The position numbers and the translations under genes are program-made. 64,000 nt of DNA from a bacterium (GTDB lineage: Bacteria; UBA8248; JACPRG01; G963555815): assembly GCA_965218795.1 (NCBI GenBank), contig OZ244653.1, forward strand, positions 1,856,001-1,920,000, in the 5' to 3' direction. Below, one piece after another: positions 12,046 through 49,354 of this stretch. Below the pieces are notes generated by a model. The model was given only the letters and a program-made list of their open reading frames with translations. It was not told where the DNA came from and ran no database searches. Each line of letters begins with the position of its first letter. Position 1 is the stretch's first letter.

Positions 12046-12290
12046 ATGCTTATTAGCATACGCGCTGGAAATCCCCTAGTCTCGTCGTATGCCGTTCAGC
12101 ATCCACATCGCCGAAGTGCAGGGAATTCAAGGGGTTTCGCCGATGCTGATCAGCATCGCCTCTGTCCAACAACATGGAGGGGTCCAAAGCGTCGAATGCG
12201 CACAGGAATGCAGGACAAGCGCGCGCATGGAGCGCAGGGCACCCCAGGTGCGTGGGGTGTGAGAGTAAAAGCGCCGACCGGCGTCCGACA
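12046..12290 (+). promoter_or_regulatory. oriT: MOBF-type origin of transfer, copy 1 (predicted nic 12260/12261)
   Basis: GCACC-CCA-GGTGC hairpin overlapping TGCGTGGGGTGT^G (the F plasmid nic core); three ATGCY-N4-AGCAT palindromes and an IHF-like site upstream. Confidence 0.8.
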
Positions 12291-12520
12291 GACCAAAATG
12301 CGAGGAACGAGCGAAGAGGGGATCTCCGCGGGCGCGGGACGCGCGGGGGAGCCGCCGCGGCGATTGAGCGGACGGCCGTGCGGAGCATGGTGCATGGAGC
12401 AGTGCGGGACGGAGTGAGCAGTGGGGTCCGCACCGGTGCGGTGCGAAGTGCGGCGGGCGGTGCAAGGAAGGAAGAACGGGCCGCGCCGCCGAAGCGACGC
12501 GACCCGCGAGGTCGTGCGGC

Positions 12521-18230: not shown

Positions 18231-18409
18231 GCTGTCCGAAGTAGCGGATTGGGTGTCTGTCGCGGTGTTTATGGGGCAAGAATAAAAAAAGAACGACTAT
18301 CGTTGACAATAGGACTGTATAGGGCACAAGTCATTCGCGACGACACAACCGCGAGGACGTGCGATGGAACGCGACCCGGTACGATAGAAAAATACCAACC
18401 TGCTTTGGT

Positions 18410-24985: not shown

Positions 24986-25435
24986 GAGGCATGGCTCGGC
25001 GCCGGCTGTCATGGGATATTGATGGTTCGTGAGGACGCATGGCGGATGAGCCGGGACGGGACGATCCCGGGTAGGTTCGAGAGGGTTTCCGGAGCGTTCC
25101 CATCCCGCCCGGCTCTGGCTGGCGGCCTTCGTGGCCGATGGAAATCATCGAGAGATGGACACCGGCCTTGACGACCATGCCGGCTAGCGCAGGGTGGTCA
25201 ACTCATCAAGGGAAAATATGGGAAACCGTATCTATGACCAGGTGGGTTGCGGAGGTTGAACCCTTCACCGAAACGGAACATCATTGTCGCTCTCACCCGG
25301 GCGCAGGCAAACGAAGTCGTGTACATGATCGATGCGTCGTGTTGCAATAGTGTTGACAATTATTATCTAGAAAATCTATTTCTAAATAAATCCATTATAT
25401 TCAATAGTTTATGTTGAATATAAAGTATTGAATAC

Positions 25436-25663
25436 ATGTTCGAGAAGCACGCGACGAAGGGCCGGCTGGTCTATGTGGCGGGCAAGCTGCAGACCCGTCG
25501 CTGGAAGAAGGACGACGAGGACTCCGACCGGTTCTCGACCGAGATCCTGCTGGTTCCGGGCGGGCGCGTGCAGTTCCTCGACAAGCCCAACGGCAACGGC
25601 GCGCCGGTCGCGGGGGCGGAGACGCCGTCCGCCGAAGCGCCCATGGACGACATCCCGTTCTGA
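25436..25663 (+). pseudogene. ssb: ssb, 5'-truncated
   Basis: Nearly identical to the last 75 aa of 15288-15713; N-terminal part of the OB fold missing. Confidence 0.88.
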
Positions 25664-25857
25664 GCGCGCATTCCGTTTCCTCTCTCTACCCGGGCCGGCG
25701 CTTCGCGCGTCGGCCCTTTTTCTTGCTGCCCGTTCCGAGACAGCGCCCGTTCGGGCCTCGCGCCGGCGCTACGCGCGGCGCTTTGTCCTCCGGCGCCGGC
25801 CGGAGGCGGAGGCCGGCCGGTATCGGGCGTTCCCCGTCCATCCAGAGGAGGCTCGTC

Positions 25858-26780
25858 ATGCCGCCCCCATCGTCCCGTTCCGCATCTCCCGCCGCCGACA
25901 TCGCCGCCGCGCTCGGCGCGCGCGCCGAGGCCGTCTGCCGGCGTTACCTGCCCCAGGGCCGCAAGCAGGGCCGGTACTGGGTCGCCGGCGATCTCGAAGG
26001 CGCTCGCGGGCGCTCGCTCTTCGTCCGCCTGCACGGTCCCGGGGTCCCCGGGAAGTGGACCGACGCGGCCACTGGAGAGCACGGCGACCTGCTCGATCTC
26101 GTCCGGTATCGCTCGGGCGCGCCGAGGCCCGCGCCTTCCTCGCCCTGCCGGCTCCGCCGGCGTCGGGCAAGAGCTACGACGCAACAGAAGCGGCCCGCCG
26201 CCTCTGGCGGCGTTGCCGCGCCATCCACGGCACCCATGCGGAGGCCTATCTCCGCGCCCGCGGGCTCGCGCGCTGCCGGTTCCCGGCATTGCGCTTCCAT
26301 CCCGAGCTTCGCTATCGCGAAGGCTCTTCCCTGCGCCGTTTTCCGGCGCTGGTCGCCGCCGTGACCGGCGACGACGGCGCCATCCACGGCGTGCAGCGCA
26401 CCTGGCTCGATCCGCGCTTGCCCGCCAAGGCGGACGTCGCGGCCCCGCGCAAGGCGCTCGGCCGCATCCACGGACGCGCCGTGCGCTTCGGCAGGCCCGC
26501 CGCCGCCGCTTCGCTGCTCGTCGGCGAAGGCATCGAGACCGTTCTGTCGATCGTCACCGCGGTGCCCGGGGTCATTTCGGCCGCCGCGCTCTCGGCCGGA
26601 AGCCTCGGCGCGTTCGCTCCGCCTGGCGGCGTCGCCGCCCACGTCATCGTCTCCGAATACGGCGACTTCAACGACGACCTCGTTGCACTCGGACCCCGGG
26701 TCCTGTCCCTTCGGCTCGCCGCCCTGTTCCCCGCGCCGCAGCGGGTCGGAGAGAGGGAGGGGAGAGCCGGGGAGGGGTGA
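25858..26780 (+). pseudogene. TOPRIM primase-like protein, frameshifted and internally deleted
   Basis: Same frameshift as copy 1 (near 26120), plus loss of the RDND-containing segment between GGCGTCGC repeats. Confidence 0.8.
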
Positions 26781-26804
26781 ACGGATCCAAAGGAGAAACG
26801 GAGC

Positions 26805-27140
26805 ATGGCGCACATCGTCAATCTCAGGCATGCGCCCGCCCTGCGGGCGGCGCTCGACGGCAAGGCGGAGCACGGCGGGACCGTGCGGATCGACCGCCGC
26901 TTTCAATGGGGAAACCGGTTCCGCATCGGCCCGGACGGACCGCGCGATGAAGTGATCGCGCGCTATCGCGCCGATCTCTGGCGCCGCATTCGCGCCGCCG
27001 AGGTCGGGCTCGACGAACTCGCCGCCCTTCACGGCAAGCCGCTGGCCTGCCGGTGCGCGCCGCTGCCCTGCCATGGGCAGGTCCTCGCCCGCGCCGCGGC
27101 ATGGGCGGCCTCCGTTCTGGCGGAACGGAGGGGAGAGTGA
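26805..27140 (+). CDS. DUF4326 domain protein
   Basis: VRIDRRFQWGNRFRIGPDGPRDEVIARY...LHGKPLACRCAPLPCHGQVL; AAGGAG/GGAG RBS. Confidence 0.85.
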   Translation: MAHIVNLRHAPALRAALDGKAEHGGTVRIDRRFQWGNRFRIGPDGPRDEVIARYRADLWRRIRAAEVGLDELAALHGKPLACRCAPLPCHGQVLARAAAWAASVLAERRGE

Positions 27141-27787
27141 AGCGGGAGAGGGGCGAACGCCGCGAGGAGGGAGAGAGAGGGCCCCGGGCATCGGCAACAC
27201 GGAAGGAGAACCGAAATGCAATCCGTTACCTTGAGGAGCATCGCCCGTACGAGTCCAGGGTCTACCACGATGGCAATCTCGCCTGCGAGGTTGCGGAGCG
27301 ACTCGTCGATACGCGTCCGTTGCGGTGACGGGCCATGCCGTCTTCGGGCGATCCCTTCGGGCCGGGCTCTCCGCTGCAATCTCCGCTTGCCGGCGCCCGA
27401 GACCCGCGTCTCAATTCCGGAACCGCCCAGGGCGTCCACGCCAGTGGCTAACAAACACTACTCCTCCCGACGTGATGGCCCATTGTCCCACACGTGCTCG
27501 CTGCGCCAACCCCTAAGGGGTCCTACTCTCCGCTACGCTCCGTTCCGGCCTTGGCTCGCAAGGCTACGGCGCTGAAGCGCCTAGGCGCGCCGAGAAACGC
27601 GACCGAGGCTCCGCGCTCCCTGCGGTCGCTTGTGCGCCCGCACCACTCGCGCCCCTCGCCGCGCCAGGCCTTGCGGCCACGGTGGCTTTGCTGCGCGCGC
27701 GTGGGCCATTCAACCATCACGTCCGGAGACTCTCTCCGCACAACGAACCGTAACGGTTCTCTACACTCAATCCATAAGGAGAGCATC

Positions 27788-28711
27788 ATGAACGATATCG
27801 ACAACATCCAAGCGCAAGCGCAGTCCGTCACCGCCACCGTCTGCGACCAGGCGGCTCTCTTCGGCGCTACCCCGGAGCAAGACGAATTCGACAACCGGGA
27901 GCTCTGGGACCCGGAGAACGCGATCTCCGCCGTCACGGAAGCCTTCCGCATCATGGCACACGGCGTCGCGCCCGACGGAACGCAACTCGCCGACGAGCGC
28001 GAGAGCCTGCTCTGGGGCTTCGTCAACATGCTCGACGCCCAGACCCAGCGCCTCGACCGCGCGGCCGACAGGCTCGTCCCCGAGATGCGCGACCTCCAGC
28101 GAGAGCAGGACGGCTCCGAGATCCGGTCCCGAGAGCTCGAACTCGTCACCGACCGGACCAAGAACCTCACGGACCGGCGGGACGCCTTCGAGCAGCTCAG
28201 AGATGCAGCGGCCGAGGCCTACCGCGTCGAGACCGGAGATGTCTGGCGGCCCCGGCGCGGGTCCCACACCTCCCAGACCGGCAAGCTCACCTCGGCCATG
28301 ATCGACGCCCGCGACTTCCAGAGAGCCCGCAGGGACCGCGAGAACAAGGCGATCCTGCCCCAGGGAACCCTCGTGGCGGTGGCAGGCGGCAAGCAGGCCG
28401 GCGACGCAGGTACGGTCATCCGGCACCTGGAGAGGCTCAAGGCCAAGTACGACGACGTGGTCCTGGTCCACGGAGGCGGCCCCGGCGTCGAGCGCATCGC
28501 GGCCAAGTGGGCGGATCGCAACGGCGTCCATCAGATCGTCTGCAAGCCCGACTGGGACGCACACGGCAGGGCCGCTCCCTTCCGTAGGAACGACGAGCTG
28601 CTGGACCTGTTGCCCAAGGGCGTCATCGCGTTCCCGGGTTCGGGCATCACGGACAATCTGGTGGACAAGGCGCGCAAGCTCGGTATCCCGGTCCAGTGCG
28701 TTGCCGCCTGA
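27788..28711 (+). CDS. DUF2493 (YspA/SLOG family) domain protein, copy 2
   Basis: Near-identical paralog of 12521-13444; intact frame. Confidence 0.85.
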   Translation: MNDIDNIQAQAQSVTATVCDQAALFGATPEQDEFDNRELWDPENAISAVTEAFRIMAHGVAPDGTQLADERESLLWGFVNMLDAQTQRLDRAADRLVPEMRDLQREQDGSEIRSRELELVTDRTKNLTDRRDAFEQLRDAAAEAYRVETGDVWRPRRGSHTSQTGKLTSAMIDARDFQRARRDRENKAILPQGTLVAVAGGKQAGDAGTVIRHLERLKAKYDDVVLVHGGGPGVERIAAKWADRNGVHQIVCKPDWDAHGRAAPFRRNDELLDLLPKGVIAFPGSGITDNLVDKARKLGIPVQCVAA

Positions 28712-28944
28712 TCCGAACGACCTCGCGGGTCGTGTCGCCACCCGGCGGCGCGGCCCGTTCTTCCTTCCTTCACGTCCCGCTGCACTGTGCACCGCACCGG
28801 TGCGGACCCCACTGCTGACTCCGTCCCGCACTGCTCCATGCACCGTGCTCCGCACGGCCGTCCGCTCAATCGCCGCGGCGGCTCCCCCGCGCGTCCCGCG
28901 CCCGCGGAGATCCCCTCTTCGCTCGTTCCTCGCATTCTGGTCTG

Positions 28945-28994
28945 TCGGACGCCGGTCGGCGCTTTTACTCTCACACCCCACGCATCGCTGATGC
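28945..28994 (-). promoter_or_regulatory. oriT: MOBF-type nic site, copy 2 (predicted nic 28973/28972)
   Basis: Minus strand reads GCATC-AGC-GATGC-GTGGGGTGT^GAGAG: same nic core with a variant hairpin. Confidence 0.72.
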
Positions 28995-29165
28995 ACTTCC
29001 GGCCAGCGTCCGCCATCGCGTGAACTGGCGGAAACGTCCGTAAATACAGGGCCTTCCGGCTCGACCCGTCCCGCCCAGGCGCGCGGCTTCCTTGGATAAA
29101 CGCCGCCGCGGCCGCTTCCTATACTGACCACCGGTCGCGCGGCCCAACTCAGGGAGCCGCGACCC

Positions 29166-30356
29166 ATGACCGACCCAAACAGATCCACCTTCGCGCGCCG
29201 CGTCCGCGCCGCCAGGCCCCGTAACAAGCCCTACGATGTCTGGGACGACGTGATTTCCGGCCTCGCGCTGCGCGTCGGCACGACCGGCTATCGCTCGTTC
29301 TTTCTACGCCGCAGCGTGCGCGGGCACAAACGCTACGCCACCATCGGCAACGCCGACGAGATGACCGTACCCGAGGTCCGGCGGGAGGCCCGCAAGCTGA
29401 TCGCCGCCTTCATCGACACGTTGAAGACGAACGACGGCCCCAGGACGCCCGGCCGACCGATGGACGCCTTCGCCGACGAGTTCCTCGAACGCTACGCCCG
29501 CCACTGGAAGCCCAAAACCCTGGAGTCCAGTGCCCTCTGCATACGCAAGTACATTCTCCCCGCCTTCGGCCACCTCACCGTGGACGCCATCACCGTCGAG
29601 CACGTCAAGGACTGGTTCGCCTCCATGGCCGACCGGCCCGGCATGGCCAACCGCTCCATGCCGGTCCTGTCCGTCATGATGCGCATGGCCGAGCTTTGGG
29701 GCTACCGGCCGCACAACTCCAATCCCTGCAAGAACACGAAGCGATACCGGATGCAGGCCAGGGAACGGTTCCTTACGGCCGAGGAGATGGCCCGGCTCAA
29801 CGCGGTGCTCACCCGCGATGAGTTCTATTGTCCCCAGGTCGTCGCCATCATCCGCCTGCTCATGCTGACCGGCTGCCGCCTGGGCGAGATCGTCTCGCTC
29901 GAATGGGGCTGGATCAAGGGCAAGCGGATCCATCTCCCCGATTCCAAGTCAGGGCCACGTACGGTCTGGCTGTCCAGCGCCGCCCGCGCGGTTATCGACG
30001 CCATACCGCACTACAGCGAAGATTGCCCGTTCCTCTTTCCCGCCCGTCCCCCCACGAGCCACATCGAGAACTTTGCCAACCAATGGCATCGCATCCGCAA
30101 GGAGGCCGGTCTGGAAGGGCTGCGGATTCACGACCTCCGCCACAACTGGGCTTCGGTCGCGGCCATGAACGGCGTGGATATGGTCACCATCGCCAAGCTC
30201 TTGGGCCATGCCCTGGTCGAGACCACGGAGCGTTACGCCCACCTTTCCGACCAGTCGGTATCGGACGCCGCCAACCGGATGTCGAACCGCATTCAGGCCG
30301 CCCTGGCCGGAAGGGGCGCGGAGGGTAAGGGAGGGTCCGATCATGCCCACGGTTGA
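29166..30356 (+). CDS. Tyrosine recombinase/integrase with arm-binding domain (1 of tandem pair)
   Basis: VWDDVISGLALRV N-terminus; TGCR, DSK, HDLRH, LGH...TTERY. Confidence 0.93.
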   Translation: MTDPNRSTFARRVRAARPRNKPYDVWDDVISGLALRVGTTGYRSFFLRRSVRGHKRYATIGNADEMTVPEVRREARKLIAAFIDTLKTNDGPRTPGRPMDAFADEFLERYARHWKPKTLESSALCIRKYILPAFGHLTVDAITVEHVKDWFASMADRPGMANRSMPVLSVMMRMAELWGYRPHNSNPCKNTKRYRMQARERFLTAEEMARLNAVLTRDEFYCPQVVAIIRLLMLTGCRLGEIVSLEWGWIKGKRIHLPDSKSGPRTVWLSSAARAVIDAIPHYSEDCPFLFPARPPTSHIENFANQWHRIRKEAGLEGLRIHDLRHNWASVAAMNGVDMVTIAKLLGHALVETTERYAHLSDQSVSDAANRMSNRIQAALAGRGAEGKGGSDHAHG

Positions 30357-31536
30357 CCTCACCCCGCGCCTGGCCCGCGAGAGCAGGCCCGGCCACAAGG
30401 ACACGTTCCTGTTCGACAGGACGCTCCCCGGCTTCGGCCTTCGCATCCACCCCTCGGGGCGTAAGGTCTGGATCGTCCAGGCCCGCATCGAGGGACGGAG
30501 CCGGCGCATCGTCATCGCCCGCCATGGCGAGATGGAGTTATCGGAAGCCCGCCGCCGCGCCCGCGACATGCTCGGGCGCATCCGCGCGGGCGAGAACCCC
30601 GCCGAGGACATCCGCAGGGAGAAGGAGACGCCGACGCTCGGGGAGTTCGCGGACGAATACCTGCGCCGCTGCGATCCGCTTTGGAAGCCTTCCGGGCGCA
30701 AGACCGTGCGAATCTATCTCAAGGCCCGCATCCTGCCCGCCTTCGGTAGGATGCCCATCGACCGGATCGGCCCCGAGGACGTGGCCGCGTGGTTTGACGC
30801 GGCGAGCAAGGACAGGCCGGGCGCGGCCAACCGGGCGTTCGAGATACTCCGCGCGATGATGTTCCGGGCCGAGGAATGGGGCTGGCGCGAGCGCGACAGC
30901 AATCCCTGTCTCGGCATCGTCAAGAACCCGAGGAACCATGTCGCCCGGTTCCTCGACACGGACGAGTTGGCGCGGCTGGGCCGCGCGCTCGACGCCCGCG
31001 AAGCGGAATGGCCCGAGGCCGTCGCGGCGATCCGGCTGCTGGCCCTGACCGGATGCAGGCGGGGCGAGGTGCTCAATCTCAGATGGCGCGACATCGGTAA
31101 CGACGCCATCAACCTGCCCGACTCCAAGACTGGTCCGCGCGCGGTGCCGCTCGGCGAAACCGCACGGGCGCTGATCGACGCGCTGCCCGGACCGCGCGAT
31201 GCGGAAGCATGCCTGTTTCCGCGACATGCCGACGGCCGGGGTCTCTGGATTCTCGTGAACTGCTGGCGCACGGTCTGCGCCGACGCGAAGCTCGGCAGGC
31301 CGCGTCTGCATGACTTGCGGCATACCGCCGCCAGTCACGCCGTCATGTCCGGCGAAAACCTTCCGCTCGTGGGAAAATTGCTCGGGCATCGGCGGCACCA
31401 GACCACGGCGGGCTATGCCCACCTGGCGGATGCGCACCTTATCGAAGCGGCGGAAAGGGTCGGAAACGTGATTGCAGAGGCGATGGCCTGTATGTACAAA
31501 GGAGGCGATGTAGTTACAGTTACAATATTGGCGTGA
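30343..31536 (+). CDS. Tyrosine recombinase/integrase with arm-binding domain (2 of tandem pair)
   Basis: FDRTLPGFGLRI N-terminus; TGCR, DSK, HDLRH, LGH...TTAGY; ATG at 30343 overlaps the first integrase by 14 bp. Confidence 0.93.
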   Translation: MPTVDLTPRLARESRPGHKDTFLFDRTLPGFGLRIHPSGRKVWIVQARIEGRSRRIVIARHGEMELSEARRRARDMLGRIRAGENPAEDIRREKETPTLGEFADEYLRRCDPLWKPSGRKTVRIYLKARILPAFGRMPIDRIGPEDVAAWFDAASKDRPGAANRAFEILRAMMFRAEEWGWRERDSNPCLGIVKNPRNHVARFLDTDELARLGRALDAREAEWPEAVAAIRLLALTGCRRGEVLNLRWRDIGNDAINLPDSKTGPRAVPLGETARALIDALPGPRDAEACLFPRHADGRGLWILVNCWRTVCADAKLGRPRLHDLRHTAASHAVMSGENLPLVGKLLGHRRHQTTAGYAHLADAHLIEAAERVGNVIAEAMACMYKGGDVVTVTILA

Positions 31537-31539
31537 GGA

Positions 31540-32601
31540 CTACGCATCCGAAGCGCGTGTAACCCTAAACATCCGGTACATCATGCTCCGCAGATCGTCG
31601 TCCCAATCAATTTCGGCGGCTTTCAACGCCATAATGAAGTCCACTTGTTCCTTGCTATGCGGCGGGCGGCGTAATATCTCGCGTAGGGTCTGCGGATCAA
31701 AAAATCTATGAAGATAATCGTAAGGATTCTTTCCGCTTGCTATCTGCTCAACCATTATCTTCGCCCACTGCCTTCTTCCCTGTCGCTTGTGGCTGTCCTC
31801 GATATCGAAAAAATCTTTCTCTGAAGGAGTTACATTCCTAGCGAACACATTGTTAATTTCGCGAATAAGGCCATTTAACAATCTGAAATGCTTGCGAATT
31901 ATGCCGGATAGCTGCACCTTTTCGCCGTGAAGAGTCAAGACAAAGTTTTGAGACCTGTCATTCCATTTTCCAGACTGTATCAAATTATCAATATAATACA
32001 TCATGGAGCCCGTGCTGTCTTGTTGTTCAAAACCATAAGAAATTTCCCACTGTGGAATAATTACTCGTCCATGCAAAAGATTATTTCTAAGCTCTCGCAG
32101 AAATTCTGAAATATCTCTACCGAATAAACCATCCTTTAGTTCAGATATCTCATCGGCAATATCGACTCGCAACTTTTGAATTTCTTTAAGTGTATCCTTG
32201 ATCCCAAATGCTAGAGCGCAATAGGCAACTGCGTCCTTTTGCGCAGCGTTTCCGACCGTGTGATCTACTTCATCCTCAAAATATTCTGAACGTGCCAGCT
32301 CTCCGAGGGCTGCATCGTGGCGACAGATATCTATAGATGCTTGATGGGAAGCATGAACAAGAGATGCCATACCTTGACGCAATCTCCATTCCTTCCAGAA
32401 TATATGATGGCGCAAAACTTGTTGTCTTGTTTCTCCAACAAGAGAATTTATTGTCTTTCGAATGGCATCAGGAGTAGGAAGTTGGTATCTTTTTAGGCAA
32501 GATATACACCGATCTACTTCATATTGTTGTTGTCTGTTTTGAATTTCGACCATTTTTTGAAAGGATGATAGCGGTTCATTCGTCTCATTATTTCCATACA
32601 T
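31540..32601 (-). CDS. Hypothetical protein with HEPN-like RxxxxH motif (Cthe_2314-like)
   Basis: FLRELRNNLLHG; visibly AT-richer than its neighbours; adjoins the 3' end of the R-M gene. Confidence 0.6.
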   Translation of the reverse strand: MYGNNETNEPLSSFQKMVEIQNRQQQYEVDRCISCLKRYQLPTPDAIRKTINSLVGETRQQVLRHHIFWKEWRLRQGMASLVHASHQASIDICRHDAALGELARSEYFEDEVDHTVGNAAQKDAVAYCALAFGIKDTLKEIQKLRVDIADEISELKDGLFGRDISEFLRELRNNLLHGRVIIPQWEISYGFEQQDSTGSMMYYIDNLIQSGKWNDRSQNFVLTLHGEKVQLSGIIRKHFRLLNGLIREINNVFARNVTPSEKDFFDIEDSHKRQGRRQWAKIMVEQIASGKNPYDYLHRFFDPQTLREILRRPPHSKEQVDFIMALKAAEIDWDDDLRSMMYRMFRVTRASDA

Positions 32602-35600
32602 TACCGGAGCCCTTTGTAAATTCTCGACAGAAAGGGTATTGACTACCCGTCAGTATTCCGCAGATACGCCGCGCCATGTTCGTGAAGTGCTGTATCTCGT
32701 CGGCGCGTAGCGGACGGTCAAGGATGTCGCGCTCCCGGTAGGATAGCCATTTCTTGAGGACCTGGTAGCCGCCGAGCTTGTAGGCCCAGACGGCGGCGGG
32801 GACGTTGCGCCAGAAGGCGTCCCCGTTCAAGAAGATGTCGATGGCCGTGCCGCCGAAGGCGGACACGGCATCGCCGATCGCCGCCCGCTCTTCCGGCGTG
32901 AAGGGACGCTCGACGGAACGGCCCTGGCCCGGCATCACGGCATCACCGGTTCCGAAATAGCCCCATCCCGCCGTCACCGCGAAATCCTCACCCGCCATGT
33001 TGCGCCCGCCGACGGTAGCGGGGATGGCGACGGCGGCGATCTCCGGCCGCAGCGGCACCTGCGTCACCTCGGGGACGGGCGTGTCGGGATCGAGCAGCGC
33101 GGCGAGGTCGCGGCCCCGTGACGCCGATCGGGCAAGCGCTTTTGCCGCCTGCCTCGCCGGCAGGCAGGCGCCTTCGGCCACGCCGTCAGGCCAGCCCGGC
33201 AGCGGGATGCGCGGCCATTCCATCTTGAGCGCCCCGGCGTTGGCCTCGCGGTAGGCGGGATCGTGGAGCACGGCGAGGACGTGATGGAACAGGTCTTCCA
33301 CGTTGAGCCCCAAACGGTTGAGCCAGCGTTGCGCGGCATCCGAAAGATTGGGGCGGCGTCCGGCGTCCGGCACGTCCAGCCCCTCATCGTGGAGCCAAGC
33401 GGGGAACCAGTTGGTTCCACGTTCAATCAGATGCAGACATCCCAGGTGTTCCGTAAGACACGCCTGCGGTTCTTCCGCGCCTTTCCGCAGATGCTGTGCA
33501 GCCGACAGCCACACATTCCCCTCGAACACGTGCGGCCTATATTTGGCGCGTTTCTCGTCGAGCAGCTTCGTATCCTTCTCCCAGTAGAGCCAGCGGTCGT
33601 CGAACGGTCGGTAGGCGAAGCGGATGAAGCCGGCTTCGTCCGGCCCGCCGCGTTTCAGCAGCGCGTCCCGCACCGCGCGGGTATCGAACCGGGCCGTGGT
33701 CTTCATCGCGCGCGGATAACGCCGGGCGATCTCCTCATTGCTTAGACTTACATCGAAATAGTCAGCGATTCGTCCCTTCAGGCGATCCAAGTCAATATCC
33801 ACGAGGAACGAATCGCGGCTGGTCTTGACCCCCGGAAACGACACCGGAAAGAGATCGGGCAATGTGGGCCAGTCAAACCAGTCCTTGCTCACCGCCATTG
33901 GCTTGAACGGGAAGCCAAGGCGAAGATTGGGCTCCAACGTTGAATAGCCGTCATCTATGTCACCGGCGTCAAGGCTCTCCAACAGCGCTCGCCGTCTTTC
34001 ATCGGCCCTTGCCTGATGGAAATCGCGATACCGGATGCGTCCGCCTGTCGATGGACCGGCAACGTCTCCCGACCTGGAAAGCAGGGCGATGCTTGTTCCG
34101 ACCTTGATACCCGGCGATTGTCCCTGAAGCGCAAAGACCGTTTCGCTGGTCCGCCCGTCCGGCGCGTATTCCGAGATGATGCGGTCGCCATGCAGACTGT
34201 CGATCCGCACCACATCGAACGCCTCCAGATACCGCTCCCGCATGCCCGTGAAGGACAGGCCGTCCAGCCAGGAGTAGTTGGAAATGAAGCACACCACGCC
34301 ACACCCCGTCTTCTCCGCGATGCGCCGCTCGGCCATGCGGAAGAACCGGACGTACAGATCGTTCAGCCCCTGACCCTCGGGCCGACGCACCCGCTTCGTT
34401 GAGCGGTACGCTTCCGAAAGCTCCCGTTCCTCGTCCACGGCCATGCCGGCGAAGCCGTTGTAGGGCGGGTTGCCCAGGATCACGAGGATGGGCGTGTCCT
34501 GCTTCACTTGCTCGGCCCGGTCCCGCTCCTCCTCAAGCTCGGGGAAGGGCAAGGGTTTGGTCGTCCTCGGCTCCCAGCCGGTCAGCGCGTTGGTGAGAAA
34601 CACACCGGGGCGTTCATCCTCCGAGAGTCGGGCGTCCAGTTCCCGCATGGTCAAGCCGACCTGCAAGTGGGCCACGACAAAGGGCGCGGGCATGATCTCG
34701 AACCCGAACACCCGTTCCAATGCCGCCTCCCTCACCCGAGCGCCGGAGAGCGCGCCGAGCCCTTGGCCTTGCAGATTGGCGGCAATCCGGCGCAGGACCT
34801 CGGCCAGATAGGCCCCGGTGCCGCAGCACGGGTCAAGCACGTAGACGTTCTCCGCCGCGAGACCGTCCGGGATCCCGAGATCCTCCTTCAATGCCCTGTC
34901 CACGCGGGCGACCATGTAGCGGACCACCTCCACCGGCGTGTACCAGACGCCGAGCTGCTTCCTGAGCTCGGGATCGAAGGCTTCCAGGAACGGCTCGTAG
35001 AAATATTGAACCGCTTCGCCCTCGTTGAATTTGGCGAAAAAGGCCTCCCGGTCCACGCGGTCTAGGGCACCGGAAGTCCAGTCCAGGACCTCGACTAAAC
35101 CCAACGGCTCCAGCCGGCCCGGATCGGATATCTGCTGGAACAGCGCCCGCAGAACAGGAGCGCGCAGATGCCAGACAGCTTCGCGCCAGTTGAAACCGCC
35201 TTGAGGCGGCGGAAGTTGCCGCGCCCACAGGACCCAGGCGGAGAACACACCGTAGAAAAGCGTCTGCACCAGGGTCGAACGGAAAAAGGCCGCGCCACGT
35301 CCGCCCTCGAAGCGCACGCCCAGGGCTTCCTCAAGGGAAGAGCGCACCGCCGTGAGCTGCGGCGCATCCCCCGCCGCCTCGACGCGAAAGAGCCCGTCTC
35401 TTGCATAGGAGGCGAGCAGCCAAGCCAGGTCCCTGGGTTCGGCGAGCGCGGCTTGGTGCGAGAGGGCACGGCAGAGATATTCGCCGAGGCCGAGGCCCAC
35501 TTCCCGGGCAAAGGCGCGCGGCTTTTCCAACAGGCGCTCGAAATCCTCCGCGCTGTCGGCCAGGCGGAAGGTTTCCAGCTTGGCCGGACGGCCCGAGGCG

Positions 35601-36004
35601 TCCTCGCCGACCAGAACGAAGTCGCGCGTGTTGGTGACCAGCACCAGGCGGTAGCGGCCCCAATACTTGCTGACCTGATCGGACTCCGCGGTCAGCCAAG
35701 CGTCGTCATCGGCGGATTTCACCTCGACCACGCCACGTTCGGGAACCTGTCCCTCCTTTGGCCGGCCCTTCTGCACCTGTTTGGCCGCGTACAGGCCGAA
35801 GTCGGGGTGGCCCGCGCCCTGCTCCGCAAGCTCCGGGACGCAAAACACCTTGGGTTTCAGCGCGCCGCCCACGGCATCGAGCAGTCCCGCCAGCGCCGGA
35901 TAGTACGACCGCTCCCCGGTCGCGCCGCCCGAGGCGCGTATCCGCCCAAGATCGGCGAAATAGGTCTCCACCGCCGTGGTCAGCTTCGTGTTCGTTCCTG
36001 TCAC
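32588..36004 (-). CDS. Single-chain R-M enzyme (nuclease, N6-adenine MTase, Type ISP-like TRD) with no helicase; Type IIG/IIL-like
   Basis: HPDF...VVEVK nuclease motif, YFYEPFL...GVWYTP, LDPCCGTG, GNPPY, YRPFD, GGYQVLKKWLSYR; probable GTG start at 36004. Confidence 0.88.
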   Translation of the reverse strand: MTGTNTKLTTAVETYFADLGRIRASGGATGERSYYPALAGLLDAVGGALKPKVFCVPELAEQGAGHPDFGLYAAKQVQKGRPKEGQVPERGVVEVKSADDDAWLTAESDQVSKYWGRYRLVLVTNTRDFVLVGEDASGRPAKLETFRLADSAEDFERLLEKPRAFAREVGLGLGEYLCRALSHQAALAEPRDLAWLLASYARDGLFRVEAAGDAPQLTAVRSSLEEALGVRFEGGRGAAFFRSTLVQTLFYGVFSAWVLWARQLPPPQGGFNWREAVWHLRAPVLRALFQQISDPGRLEPLGLVEVLDWTSGALDRVDREAFFAKFNEGEAVQYFYEPFLEAFDPELRKQLGVWYTPVEVVRYMVARVDRALKEDLGIPDGLAAENVYVLDPCCGTGAYLAEVLRRIAANLQGQGLGALSGARVREAALERVFGFEIMPAPFVVAHLQVGLTMRELDARLSEDERPGVFLTNALTGWEPRTTKPLPFPELEEERDRAEQVKQDTPILVILGNPPYNGFAGMAVDEERELSEAYRSTKRVRRPEGQGLNDLYVRFFRMAERRIAEKTGCGVVCFISNYSWLDGLSFTGMRERYLEAFDVVRIDSLHGDRIISEYAPDGRTSETVFALQGQSPGIKVGTSIALLSRSGDVAGPSTGGRIRYRDFHQARADERRRALLESLDAGDIDDGYSTLEPNLRLGFPFKPMAVSKDWFDWPTLPDLFPVSFPGVKTSRDSFLVDIDLDRLKGRIADYFDVSLSNEEIARRYPRAMKTTARFDTRAVRDALLKRGGPDEAGFIRFAYRPFDDRWLYWEKDTKLLDEKRAKYRPHVFEGNVWLSAAQHLRKGAEEPQACLTEHLGCLHLIERGTNWFPAWLHDEGLDVPDAGRRPNLSDAAQRWLNRLGLNVEDLFHHVLAVLHDPAYREANAGALKMEWPRIPLPGWPDGVAEGACLPARQAAKALARSASRGRDLAALLDPDTPVPEVTQVPLRPEIAAVAIPATVGGRNMAGEDFAVTAGWGYFGTGDAVMPGQGRSVERPFTPEERAAIGDAVSAFGGTAIDIFLNGDAFWRNVPAAVWAYKLGGYQVLKKWLSYRERDILDRPLRADEIQHFTNMARRICGILTGSQYPFCREFTKGSGNVWK

Positions 36005-36377
36005 GTCATCATCCCCGTTGTCGCCGCTGCACGGCTTGGCTAGTGTCACACCATCCGGCGCGGCGAAGCAACCCCCCGACATGGCTCCAGCGCTTACTGC
36101 ATCATCCGGCATGCATAGGGCCGAGCACAGGCGCGCCCGCGCTGCGGTATGGACCCGCGAGTGCGTGTCTTGTGAATGCCGTCGCCGCGTGCCGCTCGCG
36201 TATGCATTGATTTGTTCCCTCAGGCTTCCTATAGTGACGCTCGGAAGTCGCGCAACGGGGCGGGAGACGTTTCCCCACATGCGCGGCGGACGCTGCCGCT
36301 CAGGCGCCGCTCGGGCTAACTGCTGGATACATAACGGATTGCATCGCCCGAACATTTGAGCGGAACGGAAGCACGGT

Positions 36378-36640
36378 GCGGACGCCAGTCGGCGTTTCAC
36401 TCTCACACCCCACGCACCTTGGGTGCCCTGCACACCATGCGCGCGCTTGTCTTGCAACTTTGTGCGCATTCAACAACTTTGGACGCCTTGCTGTTGTTGG
36501 ACAGAGCGTATGTCGCATCGATATACGGCCTCAACCTATTGATATATAATGATTTTCGATCGGACCGATATACGGCGGCTATACGGCCGCTACCAATTTT
36601 GGTTGTGCGCATGGATGCGCCGGGCCGATAGCGATATACG
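36378..36640 (-). promoter_or_regulatory. oriT: MOBF-type origin of transfer, copy 3 (predicted nic 36405/36404)
   Basis: Minus strand GCACC-CAA-GGTGC-GTGGGGTGT^GAGAG; about 100 bp core shared with copy 1; exact IHF consensus TATCAATAGGTTG at 36532-36544; CGATATACG repeats. Confidence 0.8.
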
Positions 36641-36866
36641 CCGGGATTCCCGGTGTCCGCGGCCATGTCGCGATGTTCCCGCCGGTCCGTCATGCCTCCC
36701 GGCGTCATTTTTGATGCCCGGTATCGCCGCCGAGCCGCTGTTTCATGCTTGGCAGGGTCGTCATGACATGAGCCGTTCGGTAGCTGAACGGCTTCAGGAT
36801 CGTATCGTTTTTCACTCAAGGCGACCCCGTATCATCACCCATTGGGCACCAGGAAGGAGCAAAACC

Positions 36867-37262
36867 GTGACCGAAAACGGTTCCATCGAACCCGAAACCA
36901 ACGACAGTGGAGACCCAGGACAGGGCGGCGCGCGCAGGACCCGGGGCATCCGGTTCTCCGATCCGGAGTGGGAAGAGGTCAAGAAGGCGGCAGAAGAACG
37001 TGACGTTCCGGCCGGGAAGCTTGTCCGGGACACGGTCCTGGACCTCGCCCGGGGCGGGACCGGCAAAGCATCCACGGCGCTTCAGCCCGGTCACGCCGCC
37101 CTTCTCGAGGGCGTCTACCGGGGCGTCTACATCCTTTCGACCCTGAAACGCGAAGAGATGCTCCAACAGGACCGGGGCCAGGAGCTGGACGAGATCGTTC
37201 AGGCCGCGCGCAACGCGCAGGCCGAGGCGCTGAAGCCGTCGCGATCGGAGCAGCGTGAATGA
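36867..37262 (+). CDS. Ribbon-helix-helix protein, probable TrwA-like factor (paralog 2)
   Basis: TRGIRFSDPEWEEVKKAAEERDV...LVRDTVL...YILSTLKREEML; homologous to 11578-11949 with the same AAGGAGCAAAA RBS context. Confidence 0.72.
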   Translation: MTENGSIEPETNDSGDPGQGGARRTRGIRFSDPEWEEVKKAAEERDVPAGKLVRDTVLDLARGGTGKASTALQPGHAALLEGVYRGVYILSTLKREEMLQQDRGQELDEIVQAARNAQAEALKPSRSEQRE

Positions 37263-39744: not shown

Positions 39745-41534
39745 TTTTACAACGAAGCCATCTGCATCGACCTGTCCGATACCGAGCCCTGAGGTGGTCC
39801 CAGCAAATCGGACAGGTTGCTAAGGTGTATTCCACCGACTGAGGGAGGGATACGCAATGACGACACGACGGCGATTCACGGGGGAGTTCAAGGCGAAGGT
39901 AGCGCTGGAAGCACTGCGCGGGGACAAGACGGTTCAAGAAATCGCGGTGCGGCACAAGGTGCATCCGAACCAGGTGAGCGCCTGGAAGCAGCGAGCGGTG
40001 GAGGGGCTGAAGGAGGTATTCTCCAAGGGGGCGGAGCGGGCACGTGGGGACCATGAGGTGGAGATCCGGGACCTGCATGCGAAGATCGGGGAGTTGACGG
40101 TGGAGCGGGATTTTTTGTCCAAAGGGCTCAAGTGGTGAGCCGGGAGGGACGCAGGGCCATGATCCGTCGCGACCATCCCAAACTCAGCTTGAGCGGTCAA
40201 TGCCGCCTGCTTTCCATCAGCCGATCCTCGCTGTACCACACGCCCAAGGGCGAGAGTGCGCAGAACCTGGCGTTGATGCGGCGGATCGATGAGTTGTTCT
40301 TGAAATACCCGTTCTACGGCAGCCGCCAGATGGTCCGTCATTTGTGGCGCGAGGGAGTCCGTGTCGGTCGTCACCGGGTTCGGCGTCTGATGCGGCTGAT
40401 GGGCCTACAGGCCATCTACCAAGCGCCGAGAACCACCAGACCACATCCCGAACACCGGGTTTATCCCTATCTTCTCAAGGGACTCGCCATCGAGCGGCCC
40501 AATCAGGTCTGGACCGCGGACATAACCTATATCCCCGTCCAGCGCGGCTTCCTGTACCTGGTAGCCGTCATGGACTGGGCCACCCGCCGTGTGCTCGCCT
40601 GGCGGCTGTCCAACACCCTGGATGCCCGCTTCTGCGTCGAGGCCCTGACCGAAGCCCTGGACCGCTACGGCCGGCCTCGGATCTTCAATACCGACCAAGG
40701 CAGCCAGTTCACCAGCCTCGCGTTTACCGCTGTCCTCCAAGACGCCGGCGTCGCCATCTCCATGGACGGCCGGGGCCGATGCATGGACAACATCTTCATC
40801 GAGCGCCTCTGGCGTTCGCTCAAATACGAAGCGGTGTATCTGCACGAGCTCACCGACGGCTTCGCAGCCCAAAGGGCCATTGCCAAGTGGCTCGACTTCT
40901 ATAACACCGAAAGACCTCATTCCGCCCTGGCTGGCTCTACCCCGGCCGAGGCCTACGAAAAAGGACTGCCGCCGCAGATGCAGGCCAAGCCCCACCGCTT
41001 GCCTGCCCCTCTGCCGGCTCAACCAGAACAGAAAGACGGGTCAAACAGGACGCTGGCGGCATGATCAATGAACCGAATACACCTTCACTCAGCCGCCTAA
41101 CTGTCCAAGATAGTGGGACCACCTCACCCCGCACCTCCATCCCGCGCGAGCGAATCGAGCAGGAACTCGAGAAAACCGGTCTCGACATCCCGGAGGGCGG
41201 GACTCTCCTTTTTCACCTGGGGCACTACAACCGGTTTTATCCCTCGCCGGAATATTCGACTCAGTACGGGGGCCTGAGCGCCGAAGCGGCGGAATTCATT
41301 TACGTGGAAAAAGGAGCGCTCAACATCGGGACAGACGCGCCCAGCATCGATAATGCCGCCGACAATGCGTTTCCCTGCCACGTTATCTGCCGCCATCACC
41401 AGCGAACCAACACCGAGAACCTCTGTCACCTGGAGGAGCTGGCGGGCCAGCGGTTTCTCTTCATCGGCCTTCCGCTCAAAATTCGCGAGGGCACGGGCTC
41501 GCCAATCCGGGCCGTAGCCGTCCTTGGCGCCTAG
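39745..41534 (+). pseudogene. Cyclase / kynurenine formamidase family gene, 5'-truncated and IS-interrupted
   Basis: Removing the IS restores FYNEAICIDLSDTEP-RTSIPRE...IGTDAPSID...ENL...LPLKIREGTGSPIRAVA. Confidence 0.85.
39790..41126 (+). mobile_element. Complete IS3-family insertion sequence (1337 bp), 3-bp target duplication CCC
   Basis: IRs TGAGGTGGTCCCA...GGACAG / CTGTCC...TGGGACCACCTCA; orfA 39857-40138; orfB to 41064 with WTADITY, NTDQGSQF, DNIFIER. Confidence 0.95.
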
Positions 41535-49310: not shown

Positions 49311-49354
49311 ATGGAGGAGAGTGATCACTAGATTTTCCGGGAGATATTCAAGGA

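What the first reader, a model, noticed from the sequence alone, without database searches (positions are those of the whole stretch)
28973..36404. 7.4-kb defence cassette bounded by two directly repeated nic sites: candidate relaxase-mobilised, twin-integrase element
Seen: nic 3 and nic 2 are direct repeats on the minus strand and enclose the Type IIG/ISP enzyme, the HEPN-like gene and two integrases. The 5' side of nic 3 and the 3' side of nic 2 each match oriT copy 1, so deleting the cassette would rebuild an oriT like copy 1, with RHH on one side and DUF2493 on the other. Known: the MOBF relaxase TrwC catalyses oriT-oriT recombination and integration. Inference: the cassette entered at nic and can leave as a 7432-nt circle by nic-to-nic rolling-circle processing, then integrate with its own recombinases; a satellite that parasitises an oriT and delivers defence genes. 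This is my best candidate for an undescribed system.
Basis: partly seen in the sequence, partly recalled or inferred. Interest (0 to 1): 0.82.

Follow-up and report, generated by a model that had tools for sequence, protein, structure and literature searches.

The report
Twin-integrase hitchhiker inserted in transfer origin
A 7.4-kb mobile cassette carrying two integrases and a restriction enzyme sits exactly in the nicking site of a conjugative element's transfer origin, and it belongs to a widespread family that targets such sites, apparently using its own integrases rather than the relaxase to get in.

Summary
TGCGTGGGGTGT occurs three times in the window (0.28 expected). The copies at 36405-36416 and 28973-28984 (minus strand) bracket a 7,432-nt cassette. 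Removing the cassette rebuilds an oriT like copy 1.

The cassette is one member of a large family. Int1 relatives were kept at 80 loci in MAGs labelled as several phyla, and Int2 follows Int1 in 77 of 80. Ends are conserved and size ranges from 2.95 to 11.2 kb. Cargo is often a Type IIG restriction enzyme. The insertion site is the same 12-mer, usually between RHH/TrwC and DUF2493/Toprim genes.

Entry by relaxase at nic is not supported. Near-identical sibling copies differ only at positions 6-7 of the 12-mer, at either end. A 99%-identical copy loses homology after TGCGT, 7 nt before the F-type nic. That pattern fits a staggered tyrosine-recombinase crossover.

The element also carries its own covarying hairpin next to the 12-mer, which target choice does not need. 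Its attP therefore probably doubles as a minimal oriT, which is inferred. Nic-to-nic exit stays untested.

Closest precedents are streptococcal IME_oriT and oriT-only hitchers. This scan noted a similar two-integrase module before on other DNA (e1-2438010).

The parts
36417..36530 (-). 5' arm of the interrupted host oriT. It includes the host hairpin GCACC-CAA-GGTGC (36414-36426) that abuts the 12-mer.
   Evidence: The arm is 86-88% identical to copy 1. The sequence was read.
36405..36416 (-). attL core: the 12-mer TGCGTGGGGTGT, identical to the 12 nt 5' of the F-plasmid nic.
   Evidence: The F nic was read in PMC2504302 passages.
36180..36404 (-). Conserved left arm of the element, about 225 nt. 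It holds the GC hairpin CGCC-GACT-GGCG, a GCTTCC box, and the motif TATAGGAAGC at 36224-36233.
   Evidence: Alignments A2 and A4 of 35-36 left ends. The motif sits at +172 in 33 of 35 left arms.
32588..36004 (-). Cargo: Type IIG restriction-methyltransferase with a Type ISP-like C-terminal specificity domain, 1,138 aa from the likely GTG start.
   Evidence: Pfam Type_ISP_C 1.6e-43 and N6_Mtase. PADLOC REase_MTase_IIG 1.4e-89. Start inferred from the paralogue alignment.
31540..32601 (-). Cargo: 353-aa protein of unknown family with one RNNLLH motif. G+C is low, 0.50-0.56.
   Evidence: No hit in Pfam, NCBIfam or PADLOC. No homologue among the other 117 cargo ORFs. AF2 pLDDT 38.7. G+C.
30343..31536 (+). 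Int2, a P4-type tyrosine recombinase. The listed ORF starts at ATG 30208. ATG 30343 would overlap the Int1 stop by 14 nt.
   Evidence: Pfam Phage_integrase 6.4e-18 and Arm-DNA-bind_3 1.4e-14. The R, K, HxxR, H and Y residues were read in the translation.
29166..30356 (+). Int1, a P4-type tyrosine recombinase.
   Evidence: Pfam Phage_integrase 1.5e-22 and Arm-DNA-bind_3 5.3e-07. Catalytic residues were read.
28985..29165 (-). Right arm of the element. It holds TATAGGAAGC at 29114-29123 and the element's own hairpin GCATC-AGC-GATGC (28982-28994) that abuts the 12-mer.
   Evidence: Hairpin covariation in 54 right ends.
28973..28984 (-). attR core: the 12-mer TGCGTGGGGTGT.
25434..28972 (-). Host DNA 3' of the oriT (leading-region side). 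It holds the hairpin CGCC-GACC-GGCG, the DUF2493/YAcAr gene 27494-28711 (+) and the DUF7146/Toprim gene 25428-26780 (+).
   Evidence: 94-96% identical to 12236-15517. Pfam hits.
12130..12300 (+). Uninterrupted paralogous oriT (copy 1). In effect it is an empty site: hairpin GCACC-CCA-GGTGC, the 12-mer at 12249-12260, then the 3' hairpin.
36549..37262 (+). RHH-like relaxosome-accessory candidate on the 5' side of the interrupted oriT. Only the C-terminal ~130 aa is homologous. Its paralogue lies at 11578-12012 (-).
   Evidence: BLASTP 44% identity, E 1e-30. NikA-like E 0.0012 for the paralogue, below the cut-off.

Best explanation
The cassette is an integrative, probably mobilisable element of a widespread family. 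Three things define the family: a conserved pair of P4-type tyrosine recombinases, conserved left and right arms, and a variable cargo slot.

Its attachment site is the nic region of MOBF-type transfer origins, with the layout hairpin - TGCGT-NN-GGTGT - GA... The two integrases recombine the element's own copy of that sequence (attP) with the origin's copy (attB). Strand exchange brackets the variable NN dinucleotide, and mismatches there are tolerated, so NN behaves like a coupling sequence.

Insertion leaves the host hairpin and 12-mer intact at attL, followed by an element-borne look-alike of the origin's 3' side. It creates a second, minimal hairpin-plus-12-mer at attR.

The element encodes no relaxase or pore. 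It most likely depends on resident TrwC-type relaxases, which would nick its oriT-like attP or carry it along as the first DNA of the ICE.

Shown here: the anatomy, the target site, the family, the cargo, and the position of the junction. Inferred: that both integrases act together, that the 12-mer is the real nic of these origins, and any transfer step.
For: Insertion in an oriT. The flanks rebuild copy 1, with RHH-like and DUF2493/Toprim genes outside. The 12-mer equals the 12 nt 5' of the F nic. The genome has TrwC matches in 5 open frames of 956-1023 aa.

Family.
- 129 stretches encode Int1 relatives, and 80 loci were kept.
- Int2 is adjacent in 77 of 80. Two of the three misses, L080 and L098, have an Int2 hit just outside my filter.
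- The right end (hairpin plus 12-mer, about 166 nt from the Int1 start) was found in 54 of 80 loci.
- Left ends were found in 35 loci. A perfect 5-bp host hairpin abuts the 12-mer in 24 of 35, and in 27 of 35 with up to 1 mismatch.
- A DUF2493 homologue lies within 3 kb outside the right end in 34 of 80. RHH lies within 7 kb outside the left end in 12 of 35, and TrwC in 5 of 35.
- A full relative at about 80% identity in G004:C6 is flanked by TGCGTCAGGTGTGA in a diverged oriT.

Mobility.
- The integrase end is 99% identical in another genus, G004:C5.
- A 2,952-nt cargo-less form is 100% identical at 4 places, with a fifth copy carrying a 4.4-kb insert.
- One of these copies lies inside a kinase-like gene at a native GCGGCAGGTGTG.
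- Tandem, attP-like junctions occur.

Junction position.
- L064 and L065 differ at 3 of 4,642 nt, all at positions 6-7 of the 12-mers. L064 has CA (left) and GG (right); L065 has CG (left) and CA (right).
- L061 has CG (left) and GG (right). L062 has CG on both sides. L104 has TGAGTCG... on the left and CG on the right.
- Homology with G004:C5 ends after TGCGT.
- Two uninterrupted oriTs of the same genome with the host-type hairpin carry GG. That dinucleotide turns up at the right junction of L061 and L064, next to host 3' DNA.

Integrases. Both have the catalytic R, K, HxxR, H and Y residues and arm-binding domains. TATAGGAAGC sits at fixed places in both arms: 33 of 35 left arms and 20 of 54 right arms.

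The element's hairpin.
- It covaries: 99.2% of cells are paired, 3 of 5 pairs show changes on both sides, and 0 of 500 shuffles reached the score.
- Target choice does not need a hairpin. Siblings sit next to different host hairpins, and L092 and L088 have none.

Cargo. MmeI-type Type IIG domains occur in 14 of the 118 ORFs scanned, Type_ISP_C in 3 and Mrr in 4.
Against: - No excision product, empty site of this locus or circle was seen. Only metagenome contigs were available.
- The nic position is taken by analogy with F, not mapped for these relaxases. If they cut after TGCGT, the junctions would coincide with nic. The single L064/L065 difference at the left position 7 would then be the only conflict.
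- The sibling evidence comes from one genome (G061) plus one truncated copy (G004:C5). That copy has lost its left end next to a repeated 461-aa ORF that looks like an insertion sequence (not tested).
- In the 5-copy minimal family, both 12-mers are constant and identity runs through GGTGTG, which does not discriminate between models.
- A palindromic double-strand binding site would show the same covariation as a hairpin.
- Right ends were not recognised in 26 of 80 loci. Six of these have a different 4-bp hairpin, five have none obvious, one is the broken L020, and the rest were not examined.
- The host ICE in this window is a remnant without a relaxase.
Confidence: 0.72

Rival explanations
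1. A MOBF relaxase inserted the cassette at nic by strand transfer, and removes it by starting at the left nic and terminating at the right nic. The integrases serve only for later integration elsewhere.
For: Both ends carry the F-type 12-mer. The right end has its own hairpin at the F-like distance from the presumed nic, conserved by covariation. Full-length TrwC genes are in the genome. In the minimal family, sibling identity runs exactly to GGTGTG at three different right flanks. TrwC-catalysed oriT-specific recombination is established knowledge, recalled and not read here.
Against: Sibling copies that are otherwise identical differ within the right-hand 12-mer, which this model makes element-borne and constant. 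The G004:C5 copy breaks 7 nt before the presumed nic. The host-type GG dinucleotide travels with the host 3' flank, not with the host hairpin. A hairpin-less coding sequence served as a target. The exit half of the model is untested rather than contradicted.
Confidence: 0.08
2. The integrases act on folded single strands. The transferred strand enters a recipient as ssDNA, its hairpin-plus-12-mer folds, and the pair recombines it with a double-strand origin. Integron attC sites and CTX phage with XerCD work in this way.
For: The hairpin is conserved by base pairing, not sequence. The element lies at the point where ssDNA first enters. There are two recombinases of different sequence, about 38% identical.
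Against: Nothing here tells single-strand from double-strand substrates. Arm-binding domains and a repeated arm motif suggest a lambda/P4-style double-strand intasome. The left-arm fold shows no covariation (term 0.01).
Confidence: 0.1
3. It is not a self-contained element. On this view it is a variable gene slot of the ICE leading region, exchanged between ICE copies by homologous recombination across repeated oriT sequences.
For: The genome holds about 9-10 related oriT-DUF2493 modules. In one multi-copy family the flanks are nearly the same at all six places.
Against: Identical elements have unrelated or strongly diverged flanks. One copy lies in a chromosomal gene. Tandem junctions occur. 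The integrase pair and both arms are always inside the repeat. Uninterrupted origins lack all of it.
Confidence: 0.04

Closest known systems
IME_oriT of Streptococcus agalactiae / S. mutans (Puymege et al. 2015, as reviewed in PMC5704250 and PMC5357655; passages read)
   Same: [quoted passage not shown] It can occupy several ICEs in one strain. Mobilisation through or with the ICE has been proposed.
   Different: Those are in Firmicutes, in origins of the Tn916 and ICESt3 families, and the passages speak of related single integrases. Here the origin is an F-type MOBF nic with TrwC relaxases, the integrases come as an obligatory pair, the cargo is restriction enzymes, and the hosts are MAGs labelled Alpha- and Gammaproteobacteria, Binatia, Acidobacteria and others. 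Sequence relationship was not tested. The primary paper was not read.
oriT-only hitchers: iOriTs (bioRxiv 10.64898/2026.01.13.699239; abstract and passages) and MGIs of the SXT family (PMC5704250 passages)
   Same: An integrative element with an integrase and an oriT that resembles the helper's. It has no relaxase and no pore. Defence genes lie near the oriT.
   Different: In those elements the oriT and the att site are separate, and the target is a chromosomal gene. Here the attachment site is itself the oriT look-alike, and the target is the helper's oriT.
Relaxase (TrwC)-catalysed oriT-specific recombination and integration (recalled; not read here)
   Same: The 12-mer and hairpin geometry at both ends is what such a reaction would use.
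   Different: The junctions do not fall at the presumed nic.
Coupling sequences of Tn916 / CTnDOT-type tyrosine recombinases (recalled)
   Same: A short stretch between the two cuts may differ between element and target. It then appears at either end of the inserted element. Positions 6-7 behave this way in L064/L065 and L061/L062.
   Different: Those elements have low target specificity and a single integrase. Here a 12-13-nt target is matched closely. Integrase kinship was not tested.
XerC/XerD and the IMEX elements that exploit dif (search listing only)
   Same: Two different tyrosine recombinases act on one asymmetric site. Mobile elements lodge in a conserved functional site.
   Different: The pair here is carried by the element. 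Both members have P4-type arm-binding domains. NCBIfam Xer models score far below their cut-offs.

Membership tests
Tyrosine recombinase, P4-type (Phage_integrase + Arm-DNA-bind_3) | Catalytic domain and N-terminal arm-binding domain | tested here: met
   Int1: PF00589 1.5e-22, PF13356 5.3e-07. Int2: PF00589 6.4e-18, PF13356 1.4e-14.
Tyrosine recombinase, P4-type (Phage_integrase + Arm-DNA-bind_3) | Catalytic R, K, HxxR, H/W and Y present | tested here: met
   Read in the translations. Int1 has TGCR, DSKSG, HDLRH and GH...RYAHL. Int2 has TGCR, DSKTG, HDLRH and GH...GYAHL.
Integrative mobilisable element without relaxase (iOriT / MGI type) | Own integrase and flanking direct repeats of the attachment site | tested here: met
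   18-nt perfect repeat in the window. Repeats at both ends in 29 further loci.
Integrative mobilisable element without relaxase (iOriT / MGI type) | No relaxase, coupling protein or pore genes inside | tested here: met
   The window's element has four ORFs. Two are integrases, one is a Type IIG enzyme, and the 353-aa ORF matched no family in any library.
Integrative mobilisable element without relaxase (iOriT / MGI type) | Carries an oriT recognised by a helper relaxase, and is mobilised | not testable with these tools
   Only resemblance is shown: a hairpin plus the F-type 12-mer in the deduced attP.
IME_oriT-like (targets the nic site of ICE oriT) | Integrated in the nic region of an ICE transfer origin | tested here: met
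   The nic identity itself is by analogy with F.
IME_oriT-like (targets the nic site of ICE oriT) | Integrase homologous to the streptococcal IME_oriT integrases | not tested
   No sequence of those elements was at hand.
Relaxase-mediated nic-to-nic insertion | Element-host joints exactly at nic, with the right-hand recognition sequence element-borne and constant | tested here: not met
Heterology-tolerant (coupling-sequence) recombination | Bases between the cuts differ between the two ends and between sibling copies | tested here: met
   L064 CA/GG, L065 CG/CA, L061 CG/GG. This rests on two sibling sets from one genome.
Type IIG restriction-modification enzyme | Single polypeptide with nuclease, gamma-type methylase and specificity domain | tested here: met
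   PADLOC REase_MTase_IIG 1.4e-89 over residues 22-519 and 3.9e-79 over residues 312-947. Type_ISP_C 1.6e-43. The nuclease motif was not examined separately.
Type ISP enzyme (LlaGI type) | Helicase-like ATPase motor between nuclease and methylase | tested here: not met
   No helicase domain was found, and 1,138 aa is too short. Only the C-terminal specificity domain is of ISP type.
HEPN | HEPN fold with an Rx4-6H motif | tested here: inconclusive
   One RNNLLH motif. No profile hit. The model is too poor to compare (pLDDT 38.7). The Atlas neighbours are unnamed.

The most novel reading that the evidence does not exclude
One 40-60-bp site serves two machines. It is the core on which an element-borne pair of tyrosine recombinases crosses over, and it is also a working minimal oriT for the helper's MOBF relaxase.

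After insertion the ICE origin still fires from attL, so the restriction cassette is the first DNA to enter a recipient. The twin integrases would then place that circle, possibly while it is still single-stranded and folded, into the nic site of whatever MOBF element the recipient holds.

This would be a hitcher that uses the helper's origin as address, vehicle and launch pad. It appears to have spread across MAGs labelled as several phyla.
Probability: 0.3. Interest if true: 0.85.

Novelty: new variant of a known kind. Interest (0 to 1): 0.62.

Why it matters
Transfer origins are the one sequence every conjugative element must keep. An element that homes to the nic 12-mer gets three things: a target in every compatible ICE or plasmid, a ride in the leading DNA, and possibly its own mobilisation signal.

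The family appears to load single-protein restriction enzymes into that position, in MAGs labelled as several phyla. This bears on how defence genes come to sit next to oriTs.

It also offers a compact, apparently very specific two-recombinase system with a target of about 12-13 bp. Mismatches at two central bases appear to be tolerated, and that can be tested directly.

Finally, it gives a natural case in which integrase and relaxase sites overlap. How the two enzymes share a site becomes an experimental question.

Tried and rejected
- Plasmid collection. Neither the 8.2-kb region (near mode) nor the right end (distant mode) matched anything.
- Rfam on 28000-37500. Only two chance-level hits.
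- Public reads.
  - Only Logan contigs of metagenomes were served.
  - A contig of X2 and one of X3 cover 36291-37343 without a difference, so the left junction exists there. These runs may be the source sample.
  - One X7 contig joins 28994 to 36490 (side 26). One X6 contig joins 28994 to 36464 with 37 other letters between. These fit other uninterrupted origins of related ICEs as well as an empty site, so I draw nothing from them.
  - No back-joint (circle) was listed.
- The 353-aa protein. A single-sequence AF2 model was unusable (pLDDT 38.7), so no fold search was made. The Atlas gave only unnamed clusters. phmmer found no relative among the other 117 cargo ORFs.
- Left-arm consensus fold. 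Hairpins are predicted, but the covariation term is 0.01 and only 3 of 37 pairs show double changes. No claim of structure is made.
- Gene-overlap script. My script for the Int1/Int2 overlap in other loci was faulty (29 'nostart'). Only its Spearman figure stands (rho 0.70, n = 74; the loci are related, so it is descriptive only).
- Other integrase pairs. At least seven more tandem pairs in this genome (about 35-41% identical) show no nic-like 12-mer at the corresponding place. They were set aside as other families.
- Earlier notes of this scan. None for this genome.
- Not run: complex prediction on Int1 + Int2, because any two tyrosine recombinases would be likely to pass by likeness to solved tetramers.
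- Not done: the metagenome contigs and viral contigs collections were not scanned, and supplementary files of the papers were not consulted.

Full report
**1. What is in the window**

The 12-mer TGCGTGGGGTGT occurs at 12249 (+), 28973 (-) and 36405 (-). That is 3 matches against 0.28 expected, and no shuffle of 100 reached 3. Read on the minus strand, the order is as follows.
- An oriT 5' arm, 36530-36417, is 86-88% identical to the arm of copy 1.
- The hairpin GCACC-CAA-GGTGC overlaps the first 12-mer.
- About 400 nt without a convincing gene follow.
- A Type IIG restriction-methylase follows. The listed 1,293-aa ORF crosses the repeat, but similarity to a paralogue begins at residue 162, so GTG 36004 is the likely start. 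PADLOC scores it REase_MTase_IIG at 1.4e-89. Pfam scores Type_ISP_C at 1.6e-43.
- A 353-aa ORF follows, with no family in Pfam, NCBIfam or PADLOC.
- Two P4-type tyrosine recombinases lie on the other strand, Int2 then Int1. Both have arm-binding and catalytic domains and all catalytic residues.
- A 181-nt right arm ends in a second hairpin, GCATC-AGC-GATGC.
- The second 12-mer follows, then DNA that is 94-96% identical to the 3.3 kb 3' of copy 1, with DUF2493/YAcAr and DUF7146/Toprim genes.

On the far 5' side of both origins lies a homologous RHH-like gene. The two are 44% identical (E 1e-30), with a weak NikA-like hit.

**2. Why this is taken to be a transfer origin**

- The 12-mer is the same as the 12 nt 5' of the F plasmid nic, as printed in PMC2504302 (passages).
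- A 5-bp hairpin ends 9 nt before that point.
- The genes after it are read towards it, as in leading regions.
- The genome has TrwC-family matches in five open frames of 956-1023 aa, ten DUF2493 matches and some nine related origin modules.
- In other genomes the same origin arm lies within 0.3-3 kb of an RHH-TrwC operon (L022, L063, L087, L093).

The nic position itself is an analogy. It has not been measured for these relaxases.

**3. The cassette is one of a family**

A search of 61 related genomes gave two notable matches in G004.
- G004:C5 holds a 99%-identical copy of the integrase end.
- G004:C6 holds a complete relative at about 80% identity. It is flanked by TGCGTCAGGTGTGA inside a diverged origin whose hairpins differ but still pair.

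A scan of one genome per species with Int1 found 129 encoding stretches, of which 80 loci were kept (63-99% identity). By their record titles they are MAGs of Alphaproteobacteria, Binatia, Gammaproteobacteria, Acidobacteria, Nitrospirales, Thermodesulfobacteriota and others. These loci were chosen by Int1, so the counts below describe that set only.

| Feature | Count |
|---|---|
| Int2 homologue (at least 60% identity) following Int1 | 77 of 80; L080 and L098 have one just outside my filter |
| Right end: GGAAG, hairpin, TGCGT-NN-GGTGT, about 166 nt from the Int1 start | 54 of 80 |
| Left end found | 35 loci |
| Perfect 5-bp host hairpin abutting the left 12-mer | 24 of 35; 27 of 35 with up to one mismatch |
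| DUF2493 homologue within 3 kb outside the right end | 34 of 80; 69 loci had at least 2.5 kb of DNA there |
| RHH within 7 kb outside the left end | 12 of 35 |
| TrwC within 7 kb outside the left end | 5 of 35 |

The 26 loci without a recognised right end break down as follows.
- One is the broken copy L020.
- Six copies form a family with a 4-bp hairpin.
- Five copies form a family without an obvious hairpin.
- The rest are short contigs and loci that I did not examine.

Further features of the family:
- The left ends start with the 12-mer and are strongly conserved for about 225 nt.
- Twenty-nine loci plus the window have both ends. Their sizes run from 3,786 to 11,239 nt.
- A cargo-less form of 2,952 nt is 100% identical at four places in one genome, and a fifth copy carries a 4.4-kb insert.
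- Junctions of right end, 12-mer and left end occur in L043, in G036 and at 4,700,031 in this genome, as tandem insertion would give.

**4. Cargo**

I called 121 ORFs of at least 100 aa between Int2 and the left end in 33 loci. I dropped the three ORFs of L038 and the one of L065 as near-duplicates of L039 and L064. I added the window's 353-aa ORF. That left 118 proteins to scan.
- MmeI-type Type IIG domains occur in 14 members, Type_ISP_C in 3 and Mrr in 4. HNH, SNase and a few transposases account for the others seen.
- PADLOC Type IIG models hit up to 16 members.
- By clustering, the MmeI-like genes lie in up to 14 of the 31 loci.

The large enzyme gene always runs inward from the left arm. 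'Defence cargo' is thus a fair description, mostly single-protein restriction enzymes.

**5. Where the joint lies**

This is the test between integrase and relaxase. With joining at the F-type nic (after position 12), the left 12-mer would be the host's. The right 12-mer would be the element's and constant among copies of one element.

Genome G061 holds two sets of sibling copies.

| Copy | Left 12-mer, positions 6-7 | Right 12-mer, positions 6-7 |
|---|---|---|
| L064 | CA | GG |
| L065 | CG | CA |
| L061 | CG | GG |
| L062 | CG | CG |
| L104 | CG (left 12-mer reads TGAGTCG...) | CG |

- L064 and L065 are the same 4,642-nt element. They are identical except at three bases: positions 6 and 7 of the right 12-mer and position 7 of the left one. 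Their flanks differ at 34 of 120 and 44 of 69 bases.
- L061, L062 and L104 are 99.97-100% identical over 2.7-4 kb and have three different right flanks.
- In L104 the A at position 3 of the left 12-mer pairs with a T in that host's hairpin, so positions 1-3 on the left belong to the host.
- Two uninterrupted origins of G061 with the host-type hairpin carry GG, and a third origin carries TA. In L061 and L064 that GG sits at the right joint, next to host 3' DNA, not next to the host hairpin.
- The window's element and its 99% twin in G004:C5 part company directly after TGCGT. The flank there is unique in that genome.

Together these place strand exchange between about position 3 and position 8 of the 12-mer, some 5-9 nt 5' of the presumed nic. 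Positions 6-7 can end up on either side, as with the coupling sequences of heterology-tolerant tyrosine recombinases. The relaxase-entry model does not predict any of this.

Two caveats apply. Both sibling sets come from one genome. And if these relaxases cut after TGCGT rather than after GGTGT, the joints would coincide with nic.

**6. What specifies the target, and what the element's hairpin is for**

One copy of the minimal element lies inside a kinase-like gene (L092). Both halves of the gene read on across the insertion, and its own codons supply GCGGCAGGTGTG. A 12-13-nt match without hairpin or origin context therefore suffices as a target. Siblings also sit beside different host hairpins.

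Yet the element keeps its own hairpin next to its 12-mer. Across 54 right ends, 99.2% of cells pair. Three of five pairs change on both sides (C-G to U-A in 18 sequences). No shuffle of 500 reached the covariation score, and shifted registers pair in 14-61% of cells.

A feature kept by pairing, but not needed for target choice, is most simply explained as the relaxase's recognition hairpin. That would make the deduced attP (hairpin, 12-mer, then a look-alike of the origin's 3' side) a minimal oriT. This is inference. A palindromic protein site would covary in the same way.

TATAGGAAGC stands at +172 in 33 of 35 left arms and at -139 in 20 of 54 right arms. It is a candidate arm-type site for the arm-binding domains.

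**7. How it most likely works**

- Shown: a discrete element with a conserved integrase pair, conserved arms and a variable restriction cargo; a target in the nic 12-mer of MOBF-type origins; and joints inside the 12-mer.
- Inferred: the two integrases act together on an asymmetric core. Supporting points are near-constant co-occurrence, both looking active, and correlated divergence (rho 0.70, n = 74, descriptive only).
- Inferred: insertion keeps the origin usable at attL, so the cassette becomes the leading DNA of the ICE.
- Inferred: resident TrwC-type relaxases mobilise the excised circle, or stop at attR.

In this window the host ICE is a remnant with no relaxase nearby. The genome has four more origins with the same 12-mer, but only this one copy of the element.

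**8. What is known, and novelty**

[quoted passage not shown] PMC5704250 and PMC5357655 cite Puymege et al. 2015; I read passages of the two reviews and not the primary paper.
- Integrative elements that carry only an oriT are described as MGIs, and recently as iOriTs (bioRxiv 10.64898/2026.01.13.699239, abstract and passages).
- My searches of the held library found no description of a twin P4-type integrase element in MOBF origins. The library is partial, and supplements were not seen.
The window's pair has the same overlap if Int2 starts at 30343.

I therefore file this as a new variant of a known kind. It is an oriT-targeting hitcher with an integrase pair, an attachment site that mimics the origin, tolerance of mismatch at two central bases, and restriction cargo.

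**9. Verdict**

The cassette is a mobile, oriT-parasitising, defence-carrying element, but it most likely enters by its own recombinases and not by the relaxase. The nic-to-nic exit remains open.
- Confidence in the main reading is 0.72. Interest is 0.62.

Noticed in passing
window 12236-15517 and 25434-28997: Two oriT-DUF2493-Toprim modules, 94-96% identical, lie head to head as a 3.3-kb inverted repeat. They enclose 9.9 kb that holds a 1,525-aa NACHT/STAND protein with a NCAB2 C-terminus (19643-24220), an S24 peptidase-like gene (18359-19108) and zinc-ribbon/HTH ORFs. The arrangement could be an invertible or recombination-built defence island. PADLOC did not hit the NACHT protein.
   Followed up: partly
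window 2-7958: BREX-like genes on the minus strand: a PglX-like methylase (open at the window edge), a 1,149-aa protein with weak BrxC-like hits, and BrxB.
   Followed up: no
window 50852-51241 (-), and direct repeats 48678-49315 / 58960-59345: A fragment encodes only the last ~130 residues of an Int2-like protein (76% identity; 80% at the DNA level). It lies inside a 10-kb stretch bounded by 83-90% direct repeats. Similar lone Int2 C-terminal fragments, some about 1.5-8 kb from lone left-end copies, occur at seven other places in the genome. They look like decayed relatives.
   Followed up: partly
G000:C1:2698259 (outside the window): An otherwise ordinary, uninterrupted origin carries exactly the element-type hairpin including its loop (GCATC-AGC-GATGC) before the 12-mer. 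The genome's other origins have GCACC-CCA-GGTGC. It may be the source of the element's right end, or a trace of an exchange. This is unexplained.
   Followed up: no
G000 genome, e.g. 476550-478864, 1313524-1315879, 1836091-1838498, 2010149-2012463, 2952434-2954812: At least seven further tandem pairs of P4-type integrases occur, about 35-41% identical to Int1/Int2. Two of them (1399519 and 4774290) appear to be frameshifted copies of one element. None has the nic-like 12-mer at the corresponding place.
   Followed up: partly
L087, L088, L090, L092, L093 (one MAG): A 2,952-nt element consists only of the two integrases and the arms. It is 100% identical at four places, and the fifth copy (L088) carries a 4.4-kb insert. 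It behaves like an insertion sequence. L092 interrupts a kinase-like gene, and L093 has an origin arm with TrwC on the left but unrelated DNA directly after GGTGTG on the right.
   Followed up: partly
L084-L086, L089, L091, L095 (one MAG): Six copies of one element have identical right arms, while the adjoining origin flanks differ by a few bases. Their hairpin is a different 4-bp one, GCAA-TTTC-TTGC.
   Followed up: no
window 36180-36404 and alignment A4: The left arm is far better conserved than the integrase genes, with many invariant columns over about 225 nt. It contains GC-rich inverted repeats, but shows no covariation. Its role is open: arm sites, a promoter for the cargo, or a priming signal for the transferred strand.
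   Followed up: partly
window 40132-41064: An IS3-family transposase (rve, HTH_21) lies just beyond the RecD2-like helicase gene 37259-39709. It marks the edge of the ICE remnant before ordinary chromosomal genes (DUF1302, DUF1329, MMPL).
   Followed up: no
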